Below are positions 27,001 through 36,000 of a stretch of 64,000 nt of DNA, one piece after another (within the stretch, counting starts at the first letter, position 1; every line of letters begins with the position of its first letter). Location of the stretch: the UHGV virus genome UHGV-1366603, one strand, 5' to 3'. The position numbers were made by a program. This stretch comes from a virus.

Positions 27001-30000
27001 CTGTCGAACACGGGGGTTACGAGTTTAAACGTAACGAACCGTGGCACAACCGTCCAGTTCACACGCCGTTCTTAGGATCGAAAAACCAATACGGTAACGC
27101 CGCTGATGCTGAACTGTGGTTTATTGACGCCTGTTATTTGCTGTGGCGAATCACGGGTGAAGAGAAATACAAACAAGCATTAGACTGTGCTTTCTACACA
27201 GCACACGAGTACACGTATATTGATGCGGTAGATAAATTCTTCCGTCGTTCTACCGCTGCGGAAACACCGTTTACGGATGGTATTTCGTACGACTTCAATT
27301 ACCCGGACACCGTAAGTGCTACCTACGGCCGTGATGAGAATGGGGATATTACCATCCATGTGCCTGAAGCGGCACAACACTTTATGGAGCAGAAAGCGGT
27401 TCGATTCAGGATTAACAAAGACTCCAAACTACGTGTCACGTACGGCGGGGTTTGTAAGAACGGTGATCCTGTCTACTGTAAAGCAATGGTAAACATTAAC
27501 CCTGTGAAAGCCGACACCGAGGAAGTAAACTGGTACGGCTTAACCTTACCTCAGTCTACGGTAAATACCGTTAAGCAGTACGATATTGACTTAGGCCAAC
27601 TTGCCCGTATCACCACCCCAGAAGGAGAAGACTACCTGATAGCCGACGCCCGTGCGTGTTCGGACTATGGTGGTTGTACGTGGGAAGAACGTTTTGAGAA
27701 CAGCATTTACGACGGTCGCGCGGGTACCGTTATAGAAGCTGAATTTCCTGATGACGGTGCCGGGTTTATTATCGGGTTCTGGTTAACCGCTGAAGAGAAG
27801 GTAAAACCGGTTTCTATTGTCTACCGTGCGGACGCAGATTTTAACCTGCGTTTAGTCGACAGTGATAACTGGCGTTGGTGGTGGATGTTACCCAACACAA
27901 ACAACGAATGGCGTCAGGTAACGTTGAATCCGGATGATGCCACACTTTCCGGTTATCAGCCAGACCACACAGACGACGACCCTAAACCGGCAGCACCGAA
28001 TTTCGATAAGGTGGATCAGGTCACGATTCTCCCTGACTCTACGGTTGACCATGCACATTTTGCCTACTATTGTGTTAACGATGTTCCACCGCTCTTTAAT
28101 AAAGACGACGGTTATATTCTCACCTTCCGTATTGGGTTACGCGGCGGTGGAGAGTATGATGCGAAGGTCGGCGACTGTACGATCAAAGATTACCGATTGG
28201 ATTCGTTAGCGTATTGTCCGGGTACGATACCGTTCTCGAACAACTATTCAGAAGGTTCAGAACAGTTAGGTGCCTGGCACGGGATGCCTTATCCGGGTTA
28301 TCAGTATCCGTTTATGTACACTATCCACAAAGACGACCGGTATAAGCTGTGGTTAGATAACCAGATTCAATTCTTGTACGATTCGCAGTTGGCTTACCAA
28401 CGGCAACTCGGTGAATTAGGGCCCGGTTGTGCAGCGTATATCTGGAACCGTTGGGACAACTACAGCTACGGAGAAGCAGATACCTGGACAACGTTCCATT
28501 GGGGCGACGACCATCCGTGGGCAGGGTATCAACCTCGTGCGTTTCATGCTGCGTGTCGGTGCTGGTACGAACTGAAACTAAGAGGTAAAGAGATTCCTGA
28601 GGCGTTAACAAGCTATATTGAAAACTGGGTGAATTGGCTAGGTGGGTTTGTGGATCGGTTTAACGGACACACCCCTAACGAGTTCCCTACAGCACCTGAT
28701 AAACCCGTTTGGGTGGAAGATGACTTCACCGCACATATGTGTGCGTTGTGGTTAGCAGGCTGTTGTTGGGCATTACTCGCTGGTGCAACTAATCCGAACT
28801 ACGATAAGGTAGTTAATGCGGCAATTAAGGAGTTAGGTGAAGGGTTTACGATTACCTCAATTCCGAATAAGCCGATTAACGGGGCGTGGTCTCCAGCCGC
28901 TCGAGAGTCTTCCGATAACGGAATGGCTTTTGGGTTCTACAGTGGGGAAGCGTTCCGTGCGTTAGGTCTCTACGTTACTTACAAAACCTACGGAGCCAAC
29001 GCTAATATTTATCGTGACTTAGCGATTGCTGACCACAGTCAAGCGGTCTTAGACGTTACGTTAACGATAGAAGACGATGCATTAAAACCAGAGCAATAAT
29101 AACCCGCTTATAAAAAATATTGGGGGGGGGTAAGCTACTCCCCCGATCTTTAGCTCCCGATAGAGAACTTAATATCATGGCGAAAGCGGTAAAGAAAATA
29201 CGATTGCATAATCTTAGGCCGTATACCGGTGATATCGGTGAAGGCGTTTTACTTTTCTCCAAGGATGAGAAAGATTATAAGTTACCAGTCCGTGAGGTTA
29301 TTGCAGATATTGACACCGTACGTAATGCGGTGGCTGATGCACAAACAGCAGCAGCGCAATCACAAGAAGCTGCAACTCAGGCTACACAAGCAAAGAATTT
29401 AGCAGAAACAGCAAAACAACAAACTGACACCGTTGCGGCTACGGTTGCTCAACAAGCACAAACCGTAACAGAAAAAGCAACGGAAGTCGGTACAAAACAC
29501 ACTGAAGTGTTAGCCGCGAAAACGGCGGTAGATACCCAGGTTGTGTCCGTTAATGAGAAAGCGCAAGCGGTAGCGGCAAGTGAGGCCAACGTCACGCAAG
29601 CAGAGACTACTGTTACGAAGAAAGCAGAAGCCGTTGCGACACAAGCCGGTCAAGTTGAACAGTCTCTTACGGCAGTTAACGAAGCTGTCGCGTCGGTAGA
29701 GTCGTCAAAAGCCTCTGTAGAAGCTACAGCAACGCAAGTTACCTCGGACAAAGAAACCGCAGAGAATGCGGCAACCCGTTCTGAGGCAGCCGCTAAGCGA
29801 GCAGAAGAAATTGTTGCACAAGGTACTGTTGATGCAACAACGTCCAGTAAAGGTATCGTTAAACTTAATAATACCTTAACCAGTGACTCGGTTACTGAAG
29901 CTGCTACTCCGTCAACGGTTAAGCAGTTAAATGATGATTTGCAGTTAAAAGCAAACCGTCACAACCCAACCTTTACCGGTACGGTAAAAGCACCAACCCC

Positions 30001-33000: not shown

Positions 33001-36000
33001 CATTCTGGCAAATGATGGAAATTTATACATCAATAAGTCAGGATTTGCAGGCTGGATTGATGCGCTGTTTTTGAAGAACAGCGGCGGTACTCTGACTGGC
33101 GGCTTGACTGTTAATGGTAAACTGGTTACGAAGCATCCTGATTTTCGAATCGCTTATGGTAGCTGCGGTTTCATTTTACGTAATGATGGTGCCAATACCT
33201 ATTTCTTAGTAACCGACTCCGGACAAGCCGCAACGGGTTCCTGGAACGGACTACGTCCGTTGTATTTTAATAACTCTAACGGTCAAGTAACCTTTGGTCA
33301 TAACGTTTCTAGCAACGGTAACGGTTCGTTTAACGATGTACAGATTCGTTCTGACCGTCGAAACAAACGTAATCTGGTGAAACTGGATAACGCGTTAGAC
33401 CGTTTAGAAGCGCTTACCGGGTATCTGTACGAGGTTCAACATCCAGACGACGGTTGGAATACCTCAGTGGGTTTAATTGCCCAGGATGCACTCGTTGCGT
33501 TACCTGAATTGGTTACTGAAGACGATGATGCTATTTCTGGTGAAAAACGTTTGCGTTTGAACTATAATGGCGTTATTGCGTTGTTAGTAGAGGGGATGAA
33601 AGCGTTGCGTCAAGAGGTTAACGAAATTAAAGGAAGATCCTAATGGCAGTTGTCGGCGTAGGTGGTTGGATTGGTTCTTCAGCAAAAGCTGAAACTGGTA
33701 ACGATTGGATGTCTGGCGCGATGCGCACACTTGGTGTGCCGGTTCCAGGCTGGATGTCGCAATTGGCGGGAAAATCAAAAGAGGCTCAGTATTCGATCGG
33801 GGCTAATCACAATTACAATAAAGATACGCTTATTAACTATTTACGTTCCATAGGCTCTACTGCTGTCGTTGTGACCATTACAGGGGATTTAGTGTCTTAT
33901 AGTAGCGGGGTTCCTTGTTTAGAGTTCCCTAGCAATCTTCCAAATTCGTATATTACCCTCATCATCAATCCTGGGGTTACAGTATACGGCAGAGGAGGCA
34001 ACGGCGGTTCTAACTCACCAGGCGGTGCAGGTGGAACCGCAATACAGAACGGAATAGGAAACAGACTGCGTATAACCAACCGTGGCGCTATTGCCGGAGG
34101 CGGTGGCGGCGGTGGCGGCGGTAACAGGGGTAGACTAATATTTGGTGGTGGCGGTGGTCGCCCATTCGGTGCTGGTGGGTCTTCCTCTCATATGAGTTCC
34201 GGTGCGGCTGCTGGTACTATTTCCGCTCCTGGTAGAGGATCTGTTGGTGAGGGGTCTCTTAGTGCATATACAGGCGGTTCGGGTGGTAATGTCGGTGCTG
34301 GTGGAGGAAGATGTAATACTCATGGTAACGGTACAGAATATAACGGCGGAGCAGCTGGTAAAGCTGTTACTGGTAATGCGCCAAGATGGGACGCAGTAGG
34401 TGCAATATACGGTTCACGTGTTTAATTAAAAAGGAGGGTAGATGGGGGTAGCGTCAGGATGGGTCGGATCTTCAGCTAGGAATGAAACTGGCCAACAATG
34501 GATGAGCGCTGCGGGTAGTAAATTAGGATTGGGTAGACCTTTTATGATGAGCCAAATGGTAGGCCGATCTACGGGTTGTAAAATTGCGACCGCTTACTAC
34601 AAAGGGAATCCTCCTGATAAAGTTGAAAACTGGGGGGCCGTAGGTTCAGATTGGCCATTGGCTGAAAAGAACAAAGGCACAATTACTGGTGCTACGAGCT
34701 GTGGTTTAGGTCGTTTAGTGGGGATCGTACTTACGCAAGCTCACTACATTTCTGGTGTTCCACCCACTGCGGCTTTATATATCGCAGGAGGAAGGGCGAG
34801 TAACATTACGGTGACGGTTGGTGGTGTTTCGCAAGCATTTACTTACCATGATGTTATTAACGGTTTTCACTATTATTGGCAAGGAACACCGAGTTCGGCC
34901 TTTATAGCAGCAATGAAGAAAACGGGCGTTACACAAGATTTGAAAGTTCGCTAACTAATTAGGGGTAAAACGACAACTAAAACTAGTAAAATAAGAGTTC
35001 GTGAATTCGTAATTCAATATTTTTTATAGAAATGCTGATTTATTAGAATCGGGGGAGGGGGTGAAATGTTTTTAGCCAACATTTTACGTCTCCTCAATCA
35101 TAGGAGGTAACCATACGTGGAACAATTCACGCCTGATTTGTCGTTAACTTCACTTAACATGGTTATTTCACTGGTTAACCATGACCTCCAGCTCGACTTG
35201 CAAGAGAACGAGGTTGAAGTCAGCGACGTAAAGACCAGTAACGAAATGGATCGTGACACCACTGCTGTTGTAAAGATAAAACGTCCCGGTAACAGAACGT
35301 TACAAATCTATTACAACCGTTTAACCGCAGAACGTTGGTTAAACCAGCAACCTATTCTGGTGCAAGTAACTGGAGAGGGGTTTAGCACACACGATTTAAT
35401 CGATGCGATTAACGCAGCCTGTGGCAGTAACCTGCAACCCGAAGATCTTCAGGACGATTCATTTACAGTAGGAAAAGACGCTGTAACGTTACAGGTATCA
35501 CCTAACTCCCTAAGTTATAAAGGCCAATTCTCTGTTTTGGTTTTTGGTAACGGCGAAGAAGCCGCAGTAACAAAAGATGACAACCTAATCGTTACCGCAG
35601 ATAATCGCGTCTTAACCTTTGGAGGTTAACAGTGGCTGAACTGGTAGGAAAGGTACGCATTCACGAGCTACCGTCACTTTCAGAAGACATCACTGGTGTG
35701 GTGGTGTTAGCGTCTAAGGAACAAACCGAATATCAACTCCCGATTGAGAATTTAGGGGGCGGCGAGGTTACAGTGAGTCCGTCAGCGAATAACATCCTTA
35801 AGTCTAACAGCGACGGACTGTTTGTTGACGGCGCACATCCTATTGTACCGAAAATGGATGCAAAAACCTTATCGGGAAATATGGTGGTAGAAAAAACGTT
35901 GACAGGCGGTGCAGTAATCTGCAAAACAACAGTTGACGTTAATAATAGACTGGGGGTTTCGCAATTATCTGGAGTGTCAATTTATAGCCAGTGTCTGCTG

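What the first reader, a model, noticed from the sequence alone, without database searches (positions are those of the whole stretch)
29177..33643. Long tail fibre combining gpH/Stf-like segments, 40-aa tandem repeats and a self-cleaving chaperone-like C-terminus
The protein has a coiled-coil Ala/Thr/Gln-rich N-region, the conserved ALGNDPNFATT...LPYFTG block, five 40-aa repeats (GNAATATKLQTAR...) and a C-terminal segment resembling the intramolecular chaperone of endosialidase-type fibres. The in-frame 120-nt repeats are a substrate for expansion, contraction or recombination that would change fibre length.
Basis: partly seen in the sequence, partly recalled or inferred. Interest (0 to 1): 0.4.

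Follow-up and report, generated by a model that had tools for sequence, protein, structure and literature searches.

The report
Mosaic jumbo-phage tail fibre, adhesin-capped
This is a real but fairly ordinary mosaic phage tail-fibre gene from a giant Salmonella/E. coli phage; it most likely cuts off its own C-terminal folding domain and is then capped by one of two small receptor-binding proteins encoded just downstream.

Summary
ORF 29177-33643 (+) encodes a 1488-aa tail fibre.

- **Anatomy.** It has an Ala/Thr/Val/Gln-rich helical N-region and the ALGNDPNFATT...LPYFTG block. It is 64% identical to a P2-like fibre over 472 aa. Its five exact 40-aa repeats lie in two blocks (2 + 3) split by a 93-aa knob-like insert.
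- **C-terminus.** The Peptidase_S74 match is above Pfam's cut-off, with the Ser1392/Lys1397 dyad in place.
- **Repeats.** The units are only 47-69% identical at DNA level, and TRF finds no array. Even so, among 120 close relatives the second block has 2, 3 or 4 units. Three 4-repeat alleles have three different junctions, two of them chimeric. Repeat number therefore does change.
The fibre is probably not the receptor binder. A T6/S16-type Gp38 adhesin gene overlaps its stop codon (TAATG). A second, short Gp38_N adhesin follows 16 nt later. The fibre's last 145 aa align with S16 gp37 tip plus chaperone.
- **Context.** The window is a SPN3US-like ("Seoul-like") jumbo phage, and the fibre's first ~50 aa are that lineage's anchor.

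Verdict: new member of a known kind, of modest interest. Cleavage and capping are inferred from homology, not shown.

The parts
29177..33643 (+). Tail-fibre gene, 1488 aa plus stop
   Evidence: ORF. An identical product is called on a 223-kb public contig. PHROG tail-fibre families match.
29177..29326 (+). N-terminal anchor of about 50 aa, of the SPN3US-like lineage (presumed baseplate attachment)
   Evidence: 50% identity to the start of SPN3US gp143 'tail fiber protein'. It aligns with the N-termini of window ORFs 25632- and 35632-. The attachment function is inferred.
29342..29881 (+). Ala/Thr/Val/Gln/Glu-rich, Pro/Gly-poor segment (aa 56-235), a presumed trimeric coiled coil
   Evidence: Composition. 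Sub-threshold SMC/Rad50 coiled-coil hits.
29837..29953 (+). Phage_fiber_2 repeat (aa 221-259)
   Evidence: Pfam PF03406, E 2.9e-10, 40 bits against a cut-off of 22.
29936..30436 (+). Conserved fibre block containing ALGNDPNFATT (nt 30116) and LPYFTG (nt 30230), aa 254-420
   Evidence: Motif positions. Residues 219-389 are 56% identical to the CMS-2020a fibre. PDB 9d93 'tail collar fibers' matches aa 254-348.
30449..31669 (+). Knob-like domain region (aa 425-831): two clearly homologous domains of about 105 aa (K1, K2) plus weaker ones. It is the main hot spot of variation among relatives.
   Evidence: K1 against K2 gives z = 22. Residues 388-859 are 64% identical to a P2-like fibre. Identity among 120 relatives falls to 0.65-0.8 here. 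No Pfam or PDB sequence match.
31670..31909 (+). Repeat block 1: two 40-aa units (aa 832-911)
31910..32188 (+). 93-aa insert between the repeat blocks (aa 912-1004), weakly related to the knob domains
   Evidence: K2 against the insert gives z = 5.1, with 0 of 200 shuffles reaching it.
32189..32548 (+). Repeat block 2: three 40-aa units (aa 1005-1124). Copy number is polymorphic among relatives (2, 3 or 4).
32543..32920 (+). Mu S-like domain (aa 1123-1248)
   Evidence: PDB 8ju3, domain E 1.5e-29.
32813..33265 (+). Gp34_trimer-type domain (aa 1213-1363), related to the T4 gp34 C-terminus and to Mu S
   Evidence: Pfam PF21446, E 1.2e-16. PDB 4uxe, 5nxf and 5yvq.
33206..33349 (+). Distal tip of the predicted mature fibre (aa 1344-1391), ending ...GNGSFNDVQIR. 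Presumed docking site for the adhesins.
   Evidence: It aligns, weakly in this part, with S16 gp37 in 6F45_A. GNGSFNDV.IR is conserved together with the chaperone domain in other fibres.
33350..33640 (+). Intramolecular chaperone / Peptidase_S74 domain (aa 1392-1488). Predicted cleavage is between R1391 and S1392.
   Evidence: Pfam, 39.4 bits against a cut-off of 22. SDRRNK aligns with S16 SDRRIK. S, D, K, GLIAQD and LNYNG are conserved in 20 homologues. In T5 the Ser1264/Lys1269 pair has the same spacing.
33643..34425 (+). Adhesin 1: 260-aa Gp38 adhesin of the T6/S16 type, with glycine-rich motifs. Its ATG overlaps the fibre stop (TAATG).
   Evidence: Pfam GP38, E 2.6e-69, plus Gp38_N, E 1.5e-15. 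PDB 6F45_D, E 1.2e-51. Junction sequence.
34442..34954 (+). Adhesin 2: 170-aa protein with a Gp38_N attachment domain and an unrelated beta-sandwich C-domain. It has a strong AAGGAGG ribosome site.
   Evidence: Pfam Gp38_N, E 3.2e-20. phrog_1121 'tail fiber adhesin' matches full length. Model pLDDT is 85-93 for aa 45-170. BFVD hits are to T4-like gp38 proteins. RBS.

Best explanation
The gene encodes the single-polypeptide long tail fibre of a SPN3US-like ("Seoul-like", chimallin-type) jumbo phage. It is built as a mosaic.

**Layout, N to C**
- A lineage-specific anchor of about 50 aa.
- A helical rod of about 180 aa.
- A shaft made of P2 gpH / P1 S / Mu S-type segments: knob domains, 40-aa repeat units, and a T4 gp34-type trimerisation domain.
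- A distal tip.
- A 97-aa Peptidase_S74 intramolecular chaperone.

**Proposed mechanism (inferred by homology to endosialidase, T5 pb1 and S16/T2 gp37)**
1. Three chains are brought into register by the C-terminal chaperone.
2. Once the beta-helical tip is folded, Ser1392, activated by Lys1397, cleaves the R1391-S1392 bond.
3. The chaperone leaves.
4. The exposed tip is capped by one monomeric Gp38-type adhesin, held through its N-terminal helical attachment domain. The adhesin binds the host receptor.

**Two adhesins**
- One is a T6/S16-type polyglycine-sandwich adhesin. Its gene overlaps the fibre's stop codon (TAATG), which may couple their translation.
- The other is a short adhesin whose closest hits outside near-identical relatives are RB16-type gp38 proteins. 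It has its own strong ribosome-binding site.
- Because both carry the same attachment domain, they most likely compete for the same tip. Virions could then carry fibres of two specificities.

**Variation among relatives**
- The 40-aa units are shaft modules.
- Their number in the second block changes by rare in-frame recombination at very short homologies, which changes shaft length.
- The knob region and the adhesin cassette are exchanged separately.
For: **Domain map.** Pfam Phage_fiber_2, Gp34_trimer and Peptidase_S74 all score above their cut-offs. PHROG tail-fibre families match. PDB sequence hits are Mu S, T4 gp34 and S16 gp37.

**Chaperone.**
- SDRRNK aligns with SDRRIK of S16 gp37.
- Ser, Asp, Lys(+5), GLIAQD and LNYNG are invariant or nearly so in 20 homologues.
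- In T5 pb1 the scissile Ser1264 and Lys1269 have the same spacing. The Thr1263-Ser1264 bond is cut and the Ser leaves with the chaperone (PMC4690869).
- S16 and T5 fibres are stated to lose such domains by autoproteolysis (PMC7289586).
- T2/T6 gp37 is cleaved and then capped by gp38 (PMC3157838).

**Adhesins.**
- Adhesin 1 matches GP38 at E 2.6e-69 and 6F45_D at E 1.2e-51.
- Adhesin 2 matches Gp38_N at E 3.2e-20 and phrog_1121 over its full length. It is 37% identical to RB16 gp38.
- The three attachment tryptophans described for S16 gp38 (PMC6851490) are W9, W22 and W37 in adhesin 1.
- In adhesin 2 they are W7, W20 and M35.

**Gene junctions.** The TAATG overlap with an AGGAAG 8 nt upstream is. 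The AAGGAGG site before adhesin 2 is.

**Conservation of the arrangement.**
- The same order, fibre with chaperone then adhesin(s), occurs in other Seoul-like contigs (L005, L009, L011, L012, L013).
- It also occurs in the 109-kb record CMS-2020a, whose adhesin is 88% identical.

**Anchor.** The first 50 aa match SPN3US gp143 and two window paralogues.

**Repeat dynamics.**
- Block 2 has 2, 3 or 4 units in about 8, 63 and 49 of 120 relatives that are 81-97% identical.
- Flanks are 90-100% identical around clean 40-aa gaps.
- L004 has a chimeric unit crossing at AACCAA. L005 crosses at TTTGATGGTAC. L006 has lost a whole unit.
Against: - No experiment was possible, so cleavage, release and capping are all inferred.
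- The monomer AlphaFold model of the C-terminus is poor (pLDDT 51.7). Its best PDB matches are the MyRF ICA domain and the endosialidase chaperone 3gw6, but neither is significant (E 0.02-0.8).
- Similarity to S16 gp37 is carried mostly by the chaperone. The roughly 45 residues before the cleavage site align only weakly, so the docking pockets for Gp38 cannot be verified.
- Adhesin 2 lacks the third conserved tryptophan, having Met instead.
- The repeat units share at most 14 nt of exact sequence, and the extra unit of 6-repeat alleles is old (at most 72% nt identity to any other). Some copy-number differences could therefore come from exchange with other fibres rather than intragenic events.
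- The structure of the 40-aa unit is unknown. It has no Pfam or PDB sequence match.
Confidence: 0.8

Rival explanations
1. T5 or endosialidase model. After the chaperone is removed, the fibre's own distal domain binds the receptor. The downstream Gp38_N proteins would serve another fibre or act only in assembly.
For: In T5 pb1 the domain upstream of the S74 chaperone is itself the receptor-binding domain. The window encodes at least two further small fibre proteins with the same N-anchor. The pre-cleavage tip aligns only weakly with S16 gp37.
Against: The adhesin gene overlaps the fibre's stop codon, and the order is conserved across divergent fibres. Adhesin 1 is a full-length homologue of S16 gp38, including the attachment domain and its three Trp. 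No other window protein examined has an S74 domain or gp37-like tip. The fibre's last ~12 residues co-vary with which adhesin follows.
Confidence: 0.08
2. Only one adhesin is functional on this fibre. The short 170-aa adhesin, present in all relatives examined, would be the working cap. The 260-aa GP38 would be a recently acquired accessory cassette that is redundant, host-specific, or used under other conditions. The reverse assignment is also possible.
For: L003, L004, L006 and L010 carry only the short adhesin, directly after the fibre. The GP38 cassette comes with a different last ~12 residues of the chaperone, which suggests insertion or deletion as a unit.
Against: Both genes are intact with good translation signals in the window and in L005, L009, L011, L012 and L013. 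Both keep the attachment domain. Tandem Gp38_N genes also occur in Kosakonia phage Kc304 and in L040, so the pair seems to be maintained.
Confidence: 0.3
3. The repeat-number polymorphism is not generated inside the gene. It would come from horizontal exchange of shaft segments with P2-, P1- or Mu-type fibres of co-resident prophages and plasmids that carry the same repeat.
For: The same GNAATATKL unit occurs in the CMS-2020a fibre (5 units), a P2-like fibre (1) and an IMG/VR fibre with 13 units. Units within the window gene are 47-69% identical at nt level. The extra unit of the 6-repeat allele is an old, distinct unit. The fibre is visibly mosaic elsewhere.
Against: The 4-repeat alleles have junction units that are exact chimeras of the neighbouring units of the same lineage, with otherwise 90-100% identical flanks. 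They also have three different breakpoints. This is what intragenic unequal recombination or deletion predicts.
Confidence: 0.25
4. The S74-like domain is retained, not cleaved, and forms a permanent C-terminal cap.
For: No direct evidence of cleavage here. The domain is short (97 aa) compared with 133 aa in T5.
Against: The Ser and Lys(+5) and the other family-conserved residues are intact. The closest characterised relative, S16 gp37, is processed. A retained chaperone would occupy the surface to which Gp38 attaches.
Confidence: 0.05

Closest known systems
Distal long tail fibre tip of T2/T6/S16-type T-even phages (gp37 with C-terminal intramolecular chaperone, plus gp38 adhesin; PDB 6F45)
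   Same: The C-terminal 145 aa align with S16 gp37 tip plus chaperone, including SDRR.K. The next gene is a full-length homologue of S16 gp38, with Gp38_N, a beta-helix and glycine-rich motifs. The order, gp37-like gene then gp38, is the same.
   Different: - The host phage is a SPN3US-like jumbo phage, not Straboviridae.
- The fibre is one 1488-aa polypeptide with its own baseplate anchor. No gp34, gp35 or gp36-type proximal, hinge or connector proteins were found next to it.
- The shaft is P2/P1/Mu-like.
- Two different Gp38_N adhesins are encoded in tandem.
Peptidase_S74 intramolecular chaperone of endosialidase tailspikes (K1F endoNF, PDB 3GW6) and the T5 L-shaped fibre pb1
   Same: The Pfam family match is above threshold. 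The position is C-terminal. The scissile Ser and the Lys five residues later are present, as are the GLIAQD and LNYNG motifs and a C-terminal helix.
   Different: The domain is shorter (97 aa against about 133 in T5). Upstream of it is a gp34/gp37-like tip, not a sialidase stalk or the T5 bullet domain. Here the mature tip is predicted to be capped by a separate adhesin rather than to bind the receptor itself.
P2 gpH / P1 S / Mu S tail fibres
   Same: Identity is 64% over aa 388-859 to a P2-like fibre. A P1-type block is 56% identical over aa 219-389. The Mu S domain matches at E 1.5e-29. The GNAATATKL repeat is shared.
   Different: Those fibres use a separate downstream Tfa chaperone (gpG/U), as in locus L007, and in P1 and Mu an invertible segment. 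Here there is no Tfa gene and no oppositely oriented alternative C-terminus. Folding is taken over by the fused S74 domain.
Fibre of the 109-kb circular record 'Escherichia phage CMS-2020a' (CP054387.1)
   Same: It has the same repeats, 52% identity over the last 500 aa, an S74 domain (SDKRNK), and a following 170-aa adhesin 88% identical to adhesin 2.
   Different: Its N-terminal part is different, it is shorter (1123 aa), and no 260-aa GP38 gene lies between fibre and short adhesin in that record.
RB16-type short gp38 adhesins (RB43 matches only in the N-terminal domain) and tandem short adhesins of Kosakonia phage Kc304
   Same: Adhesin 2 shares the N-terminal attachment domain and about 37% identity over 120 aa with RB16 gp38. 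Trojet et al. note that T6 and RB43 gp38 share only the N-terminus. Kc304 has two Gp38_N genes after g37.
   Different: In the window, one adhesin of each type (T6-like and RB16-like) sits behind one fibre, in a jumbo phage.

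Membership tests
Peptidase_S74 / intramolecular chaperone auto-processing domain | Profile match above the curated family threshold | tested here: met
   PF13884, aa 1392-1446, profile positions 1-57 of 58, E 7.4e-10, 39.4 bits against a cut-off of 22. The same domain is precomputed for all 120 relatives.
Peptidase_S74 / intramolecular chaperone auto-processing domain | Located at the extreme C-terminus of a trimeric fibre or spike protein | tested here: met
   The domain occupies the last 97 of 1488 residues. It follows Gp34_trimer and gp37-like tip sequence.
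Peptidase_S74 / intramolecular chaperone auto-processing domain | Scissile Ser with catalytic Lys five residues downstream (T5 Ser1264/Lys1269; same mechanism proposed for K1F) | tested here: met
   S1392-D-R-R-N-K1397. The Ser, Asp and Lys columns are at least 90% conserved in 20 homologues. They align with SDRRIK of S16 gp37. The T5 residues are from PMC4690869.
Peptidase_S74 / intramolecular chaperone auto-processing domain | Chaperone fold (helix/hairpin domain ending in a trimeric coiled-coil helix) | tested here: inconclusive
   The monomer AF2 model has pLDDT 51.7. It predicts helices, hairpins and a long C-terminal helix. The top PDB matches are the MyRF ICA domain 7dc3 (E 0.02, TM 0.42) and 3gw6 (E 0.8), not significant.
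Peptidase_S74 / intramolecular chaperone auto-processing domain | Autoproteolytic release after trimerisation | not testable with these tools
   Needs expression or virion proteomics.
T2/T6/S16-type adhesin-capped long tail fibre (gp37 + gp38) | gp38 adhesin (Gp38_N + beta-helix + glycine-rich sandwich) encoded directly after the fibre gene | tested here: met
   PF05268 at E 2.6e-69 and PF21721 at E 1.5e-15. 6F45_D at E 1.2e-51 over residues 7-258. The start overlaps the fibre stop.
T2/T6/S16-type adhesin-capped long tail fibre (gp37 + gp38) | Fibre C-terminus homologous to gp37 tip plus chaperone | tested here: met
   6F45_A residues 47-190 align with fibre aa 1344-1486, E 1.1e-14. Similarity is strong in the chaperone and weak in the tip.
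T2/T6/S16-type adhesin-capped long tail fibre (gp37 + gp38) | Three conserved Trp at the apices of the Gp38 attachment helices | tested here: met
   Adhesin 1 has W9, W22 and W37, as described for S16. Adhesin 2 has W7 and W20 but Met at the third position. Relatives have W, M, N or Y there.
T2/T6/S16-type adhesin-capped long tail fibre (gp37 + gp38) | Part of the four-protein Straboviridae fibre (gp34-gp35-gp36-gp37) in a T4-like genome | tested here: not met
   The genome is SPN3US-like. The fibre is a single chain with its own anchor. The neighbours are a 1001-aa tail protein and DUF7941 proteins, not gp35 or gp36. It therefore works like this system but is not a Straboviridae LTF.
P2 gpH / P1 S / Mu S fibres with separate Tfa chaperone | Shaft sequence homology | tested here: met
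P2 gpH / P1 S / Mu S fibres with separate Tfa chaperone | Downstream Tfa (gpG/U-type) assembly chaperone | tested here: not met
   The downstream genes are Gp38-type adhesins. No Tfa family hit was found in Pfam or PHROGs for the neighbours. The P2-like comparator does have one.
Tandem-repeat contingency locus (slipped-strand copy-number switching) | Near-identical head-to-tail DNA repeats | tested here: not met
   TRF finds no array. Units are 47-69% identical, with a longest exact run of 14 nt.
Tandem-repeat contingency locus (slipped-strand copy-number switching) | Copy-number polymorphism among close relatives | tested here: met
   Block 2 has 2, 3 or 4 units. There are three independent junctions. 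Variation is evolutionary and rare, not a high-frequency switch.

The most novel reading that the evidence does not exclude
One fibre, two interchangeable caps. This chimallin-type jumbo phage would load the same self-processed fibre tip with either a T6/S16-type polyglycine adhesin or a short RB16-type adhesin, so single virions would carry fibres of two receptor specificities. The accessory GP38 cassette would be gained and lost by recombination inside the last ~12 codons of the chaperone. Together with knob swaps and repeat-number changes, this would tune the host range of a phage lineage that persists in Salmonella, Shigella and E. coli isolates.
Probability: 0.3. Interest if true: 0.5.

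Novelty: new member of a known kind. Interest (0 to 1): 0.3.

Why it matters
**Annotation.** It corrects a likely mis-annotation. For this widespread group of jumbo phages, found as 220-227-kb contigs in many Salmonella, Shigella and E. coli isolate assemblies, host specificity should be read from the two small adhesin genes, and perhaps the knob domains, not from the 1488-aa fibre.

**Spread of the module.** In the papers consulted, the self-cleaving tip plus Gp38 adhesin module is discussed as a Straboviridae feature. Here it is also fused to unrelated fibre shafts and anchors in a chimallin-type jumbo phage and in a 109-kb phage record. That fits the established picture of tail-fibre mosaicism rather than changing it.

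**Repeat dynamics.** The repeat-number alleles with chimeric junction units are a clean natural example. In-frame shaft modules are lost at 6-11-nt homologies even though the repeats are far too diverged for slippage.

**Practical use.** The adhesin genes are the obvious handles for predicting or engineering the host range of these phages.

Tried and rejected
- **Tandem Repeats Finder on 28500-34500:** no 120-nt array. The DNA slippage idea was dropped.
- **Megablast of the gene against 50,697 phage records:** no match. There is no close isolate.
- **tblastn against the same records:** no record covers at least 80% of the protein.
- **PDB sequence searches with the repeat region (aa 812-1128) and the knob region (aa 402-831):** nothing usable.
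- **Pfam at E up to 10 on the same regions:** only a sub-threshold DUF6948 hit. The fold of the 40-aa unit remains unknown.
- **NCBIfam:** only sub-threshold SMC/Rad50 coiled-coil hits, and nothing for the adhesins.
- **AlphaFold2 monomer of the last 188 aa:** pLDDT 51.7, too poor for a fold claim.
- **Foldseek of the adhesin-2 model against PDB:** no significant match. Against BFVD only short T4-like gp38 proteins matched.
- **Word-indexed homologue searches with the C-terminus and with adhesin 2:** few diverse sequences.
- **Exhaustive search with adhesin 2:** only 62 cluster representatives, most matching only the N-terminal 45 aa.
- **Promoter and terminator scan:** no more sites than in shuffles for promoters, and nothing interpretable.
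- **GC profile:** the fibre and adhesins (0.47-0.52) are somewhat richer than the small ORFs downstream (0.37-0.42), with no sharp boundary.
- **Self-BLAST for internal repeats:** returned nothing useful. It was replaced by Smith-Waterman alignment with shuffles.
- **Invertible-segment (P1/Mu-type) switching:** considered and dropped, because all genes here are co-oriented with no inverted alternative C-terminus.

Full report
**1. The observation**

The window has a long + strand ORF from 29120 (TTG) or 29177 (ATG) to 33643. I take the ATG at 29177 as the start.
- The same 1488-aa product is called on public contigs.
- The N-terminus MAKAVKKIRLHNLRPY... aligns from its first residue with two other window proteins and with SPN3US gp143.

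- Residues 56-235 are A 23%, T 17%, V 12%, Q 10%, E 10%, with only 2% Pro+Gly. They give sub-threshold hits to SMC/Rad50 coiled-coil regions.
- ALGNDPNFATT is at aa 314 and LPYFTG at aa 352.
- Five 40-aa units begin at aa 832, 872, 1005, 1045 and 1085.
- Their similarity is far beyond chance. Mean pairwise ungapped score is 120, against -31.5 +/- 6 for random segments of the same protein, z = 25.

Two corrections are needed.
- The units form two blocks (2 + 3) separated by a 93-aa domain (aa 912-1004), not one array.
- At DNA level they are only 47-69% identical. The longest exact shared run is 14 nt, and Tandem Repeats Finder sees no 120-nt repeat.

**2. What the protein is made of**

Pfam gives three matches above their curated cut-offs:
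- Phage_fiber_2, aa 221-259.
- Gp34_trimer, aa 1213-1363.
- Peptidase_S74, aa 1392-1446, at 39.4 bits against a cut-off of 22.

Other evidence on the parts:
- PHROGs gives dozens of tail-fibre families, each covering a different part.
- No phage record matches at nucleotide level, and none covers 80% of the protein.
- Residues 388-859 are 64% identical, without gaps, to a P2-like fibre.
- Residues 219-389 and 992-1487 are 56% and 52% identical to the fibre of the 109-kb record CMS-2020a.
- Solved structures with sequence similarity are Mu S (aa 1123-1248, E 1.5e-29), the T4 gp34 C-terminus and Mu S (aa 1278-1383), and S16 gp37 (aa 1344-1486).
- Between aa 425 and 831 lie knob-like domains. Two are clearly homologous (z = 22), and the insert between the repeat blocks is a weaker relative (z = 5.1).
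- Neither the knobs nor the 40-aa units match any Pfam model or PDB sequence.

**3. The C-terminal chaperone**

The S74 match starts exactly at S1392 of SDRRNK.
- This hexapeptide aligns with SDRRIK of S16 gp37.
- In an alignment of 20 homologues, the Ser, Asp, Lys(+5), GLIAQD and LNYNG positions are invariant or nearly so.
- In T5 pb1 the scissile Ser1264 is activated by Lys1269, the same spacing. The bond before the Ser is cut, and the Ser leaves with the chaperone (PMC4690869).
- By analogy, the mature fibre would be aa 1-1391 and the released domain aa 1392-1488.

The monomer AlphaFold model is too poor (pLDDT 51.7) to test the fold. Its best PDB matches are the MyRF ICA domain and the endosialidase chaperone 3gw6, but not significantly. 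I count the fold as inconclusive and cleavage as inferred.

**4.

*Adhesin 1.*
- The next gene (33643-34425) starts with an ATG that overlaps the fibre's TAA (TAATG), with AGGAAG 8 nt upstream.
- Its 260-aa product matches Pfam GP38 (E 2.6e-69) and Gp38_N.
- It matches the solved S16 gp38 adhesin at E 1.2e-51 over nearly its whole length, glycine-rich motifs included.

*Adhesin 2.*
- It follows 16 nt later, behind a strong AAGGAGG site, at 34442-34954 (170 aa).
- Its first ~45 residues are a Gp38_N domain (E 3.2e-20). Its full length matches phrog_1121 'tail fiber adhesin'.
- The rest is unrelated to adhesin 1 and is modelled confidently as a beta-sandwich (pLDDT 85-93).
- The model has no significant PDB neighbour. 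It does resemble short gp38 proteins of T4-like Proteus phages.
- It is 37% identical to RB16 gp38.

*What is known about this system.*
- In S16, one gp38 monomer attaches to the gp37 trimer through three conserved tryptophans (PMC6851490). Adhesin 1 has all three (W9, W22, W37). Adhesin 2 has two plus a Met.
- In T2 and T6, gp37 is cleaved at its C-terminus and then capped by gp38 (PMC3157838).
- S16 gp37 carries an intramolecular chaperone that is removed by autoproteolysis (PMC7289586).

The best reading is therefore a T2/T6/S16-type tip, in which the fibre is the stalk and the adhesin binds the receptor.

**5. Context**

- The first 25 kb of the window are about 73% identical to Erwinia phage phiEaH2 and 74-75% identical to Salmonella SPN3US-type phages.
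- The fibre's first 50 residues match the start of SPN3US gp143. The 1001-aa protein upstream corresponds to SPN3US gp142. SPN3US has no long fibre or adhesins after gp142.
- The identical fibre lies on a 223,427-bp human-gut contig.
- 120 relatives at 81-97% identity lie largely on 220-227-kb contigs. Many come from Salmonella enterica isolate assemblies, and one fragment comes from Shigella flexneri.
- This fits the 'Seoul-like' persistent virulent jumbo phages already described in bacterial assemblies (bioRxiv 10.1101/2024.12.31.630880).
- That preprint does not mention tail fibres. My literature searches found no description of Gp38 adhesins in this group. Gp38 papers treat them as a Straboviridae feature.

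**6.

- Block 1 always has two units.
- Block 2 has 2, 3 or 4 units in roughly 8, 63 and 49 of the 120 relatives.
- The differences are clean 40-aa gaps in flanks that are 90-100% identical.

DNA of four relatives shows how:
- L004 has a chimeric unit, with the first 98 nt of unit C joined to the last 22 nt of unit D at AACCAA.
- L005 has a different chimera, joined at TTTGATGGTAC.
- L006 has lost a whole unit.
- The extra unit of 6-repeat alleles is an old, distinct unit (at most 72% identity to any other), not a fresh duplication.

Copy number thus changes by occasional in-frame recombination at very short homologies, not by slippage. Some contribution from exchange with other fibres cannot be excluded. 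The same unit occurs 5 times in CMS-2020a and 13 times in an IMG/VR fibre, where blocks are again separated by ~94-aa inserts.

Other hot spots are the knob region (aa 441-720), a ~53-aa indel at aa ~1250-1305, and the last ~12 residues. The last ~12 residues co-vary with the adhesin cassette:
- ...MKALRQEVNEIKGRS precedes the GP38 gene in the window, L005, L009 and L011.
- ...MKSLRRELKELKEK precedes the short adhesin directly in L003, L004 and L006, and L010 has a similar ending.

**7. Comparison and verdict**

- The chaperone passes the sequence-level membership tests for Peptidase_S74.
- The tip and adhesin pass those for the T2/S16 system, except for belonging to a Straboviridae four-protein fibre, which it does not.
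- The shaft is homologous to P2/P1/Mu fibres, but there is no separate Tfa chaperone.
- Two tandem Gp38_N genes also occur in Kosakonia phage Kc304 and in a 107-kb IMG/VR contig, so that feature is not unique either.

Tail-fibre mosaicism of this kind is long established. I rate this a new member of a known kind, with interest 0.3. The most novel reading still open is that one fibre tip is capped alternatively by two adhesins, giving virions of mixed specificity.

Noticed in passing
window 25581-26093 (likely start 25632), 29177-29326, 35632-36252: Three proteins share the same ~50-aa N-terminal anchor (MA.AVKK.RLH.L...SKDEKEYKLP). SPN3US has it once, in gp143. This suggests several different fibres use one kind of baseplate socket.
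   Followed up: partly
window 25103-25666, 35117-35629, 43345-44193: DUF7941 'virion structural' proteins recur. Two of them sit directly before small anchor-bearing fibre genes, as if forming DUF7941 + fibre pairs.
   Followed up: no
whole window; locus L001: The window is a SPN3US-like jumbo phage. The identical fibre is on a 223-kb human-gut contig, and close relatives are 220-227-kb contigs in Salmonella, Shigella and E. coli isolate assemblies. This matches the published 'persistent virulent jumbo phages'.
   Followed up: partly
L008 (CP054387.1, 'Escherichia phage CMS-2020a'), 2816-6785: A 109-kb circular phage record has a 1123-aa fibre with the same 40-aa repeats and an S74 domain, followed by a 170-aa adhesin 88% identical to the window's second adhesin. 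This points to recent exchange of the tip module between very different phages.
   Followed up: partly
L036 (IMG/VR 45-kb contig), 3221-7492: This fibre has 13 GNAATATKL units in blocks of 1, 5, 4 and 3, with the last three blocks separated by ~94-aa inserts. The 'repeat block - knob - repeat block' pattern is therefore itself a higher-order repeat.
   Followed up: no
L003, L004, L006, L010 versus window, L005, L009, L011: The 260-aa GP38 gene is a presence/absence cassette among close relatives. Its presence co-varies with the last ~12 residues of the fibre's chaperone domain, which places a recombination breakpoint inside the chaperone's final helix.
   Followed up: partly
L045 (Kosakonia phage Kc304) 4001-5203; L040 6394-9209: Tandem pairs of Gp38_N-bearing genes after a fibre gene also occur in a Straboviridae phage and in a 107-kb IMG/VR contig.
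   Followed up: partly
window 29122-29144: A G9 run followed by a complementary CCCCC (GGGGGGGGGTAAGCTACTCCCCC) lies in the 77-nt gap between the 1001-aa tail protein gene and the fibre gene. Its function is unknown.
   Followed up: no
window 32900-33100 (aa ~1250-1305 of the fibre): About 45% of the 120 relatives lack ~53 aa here (fibres of 1435-1438 aa). This is a second length polymorphism, independent of the repeats.
   Followed up: no
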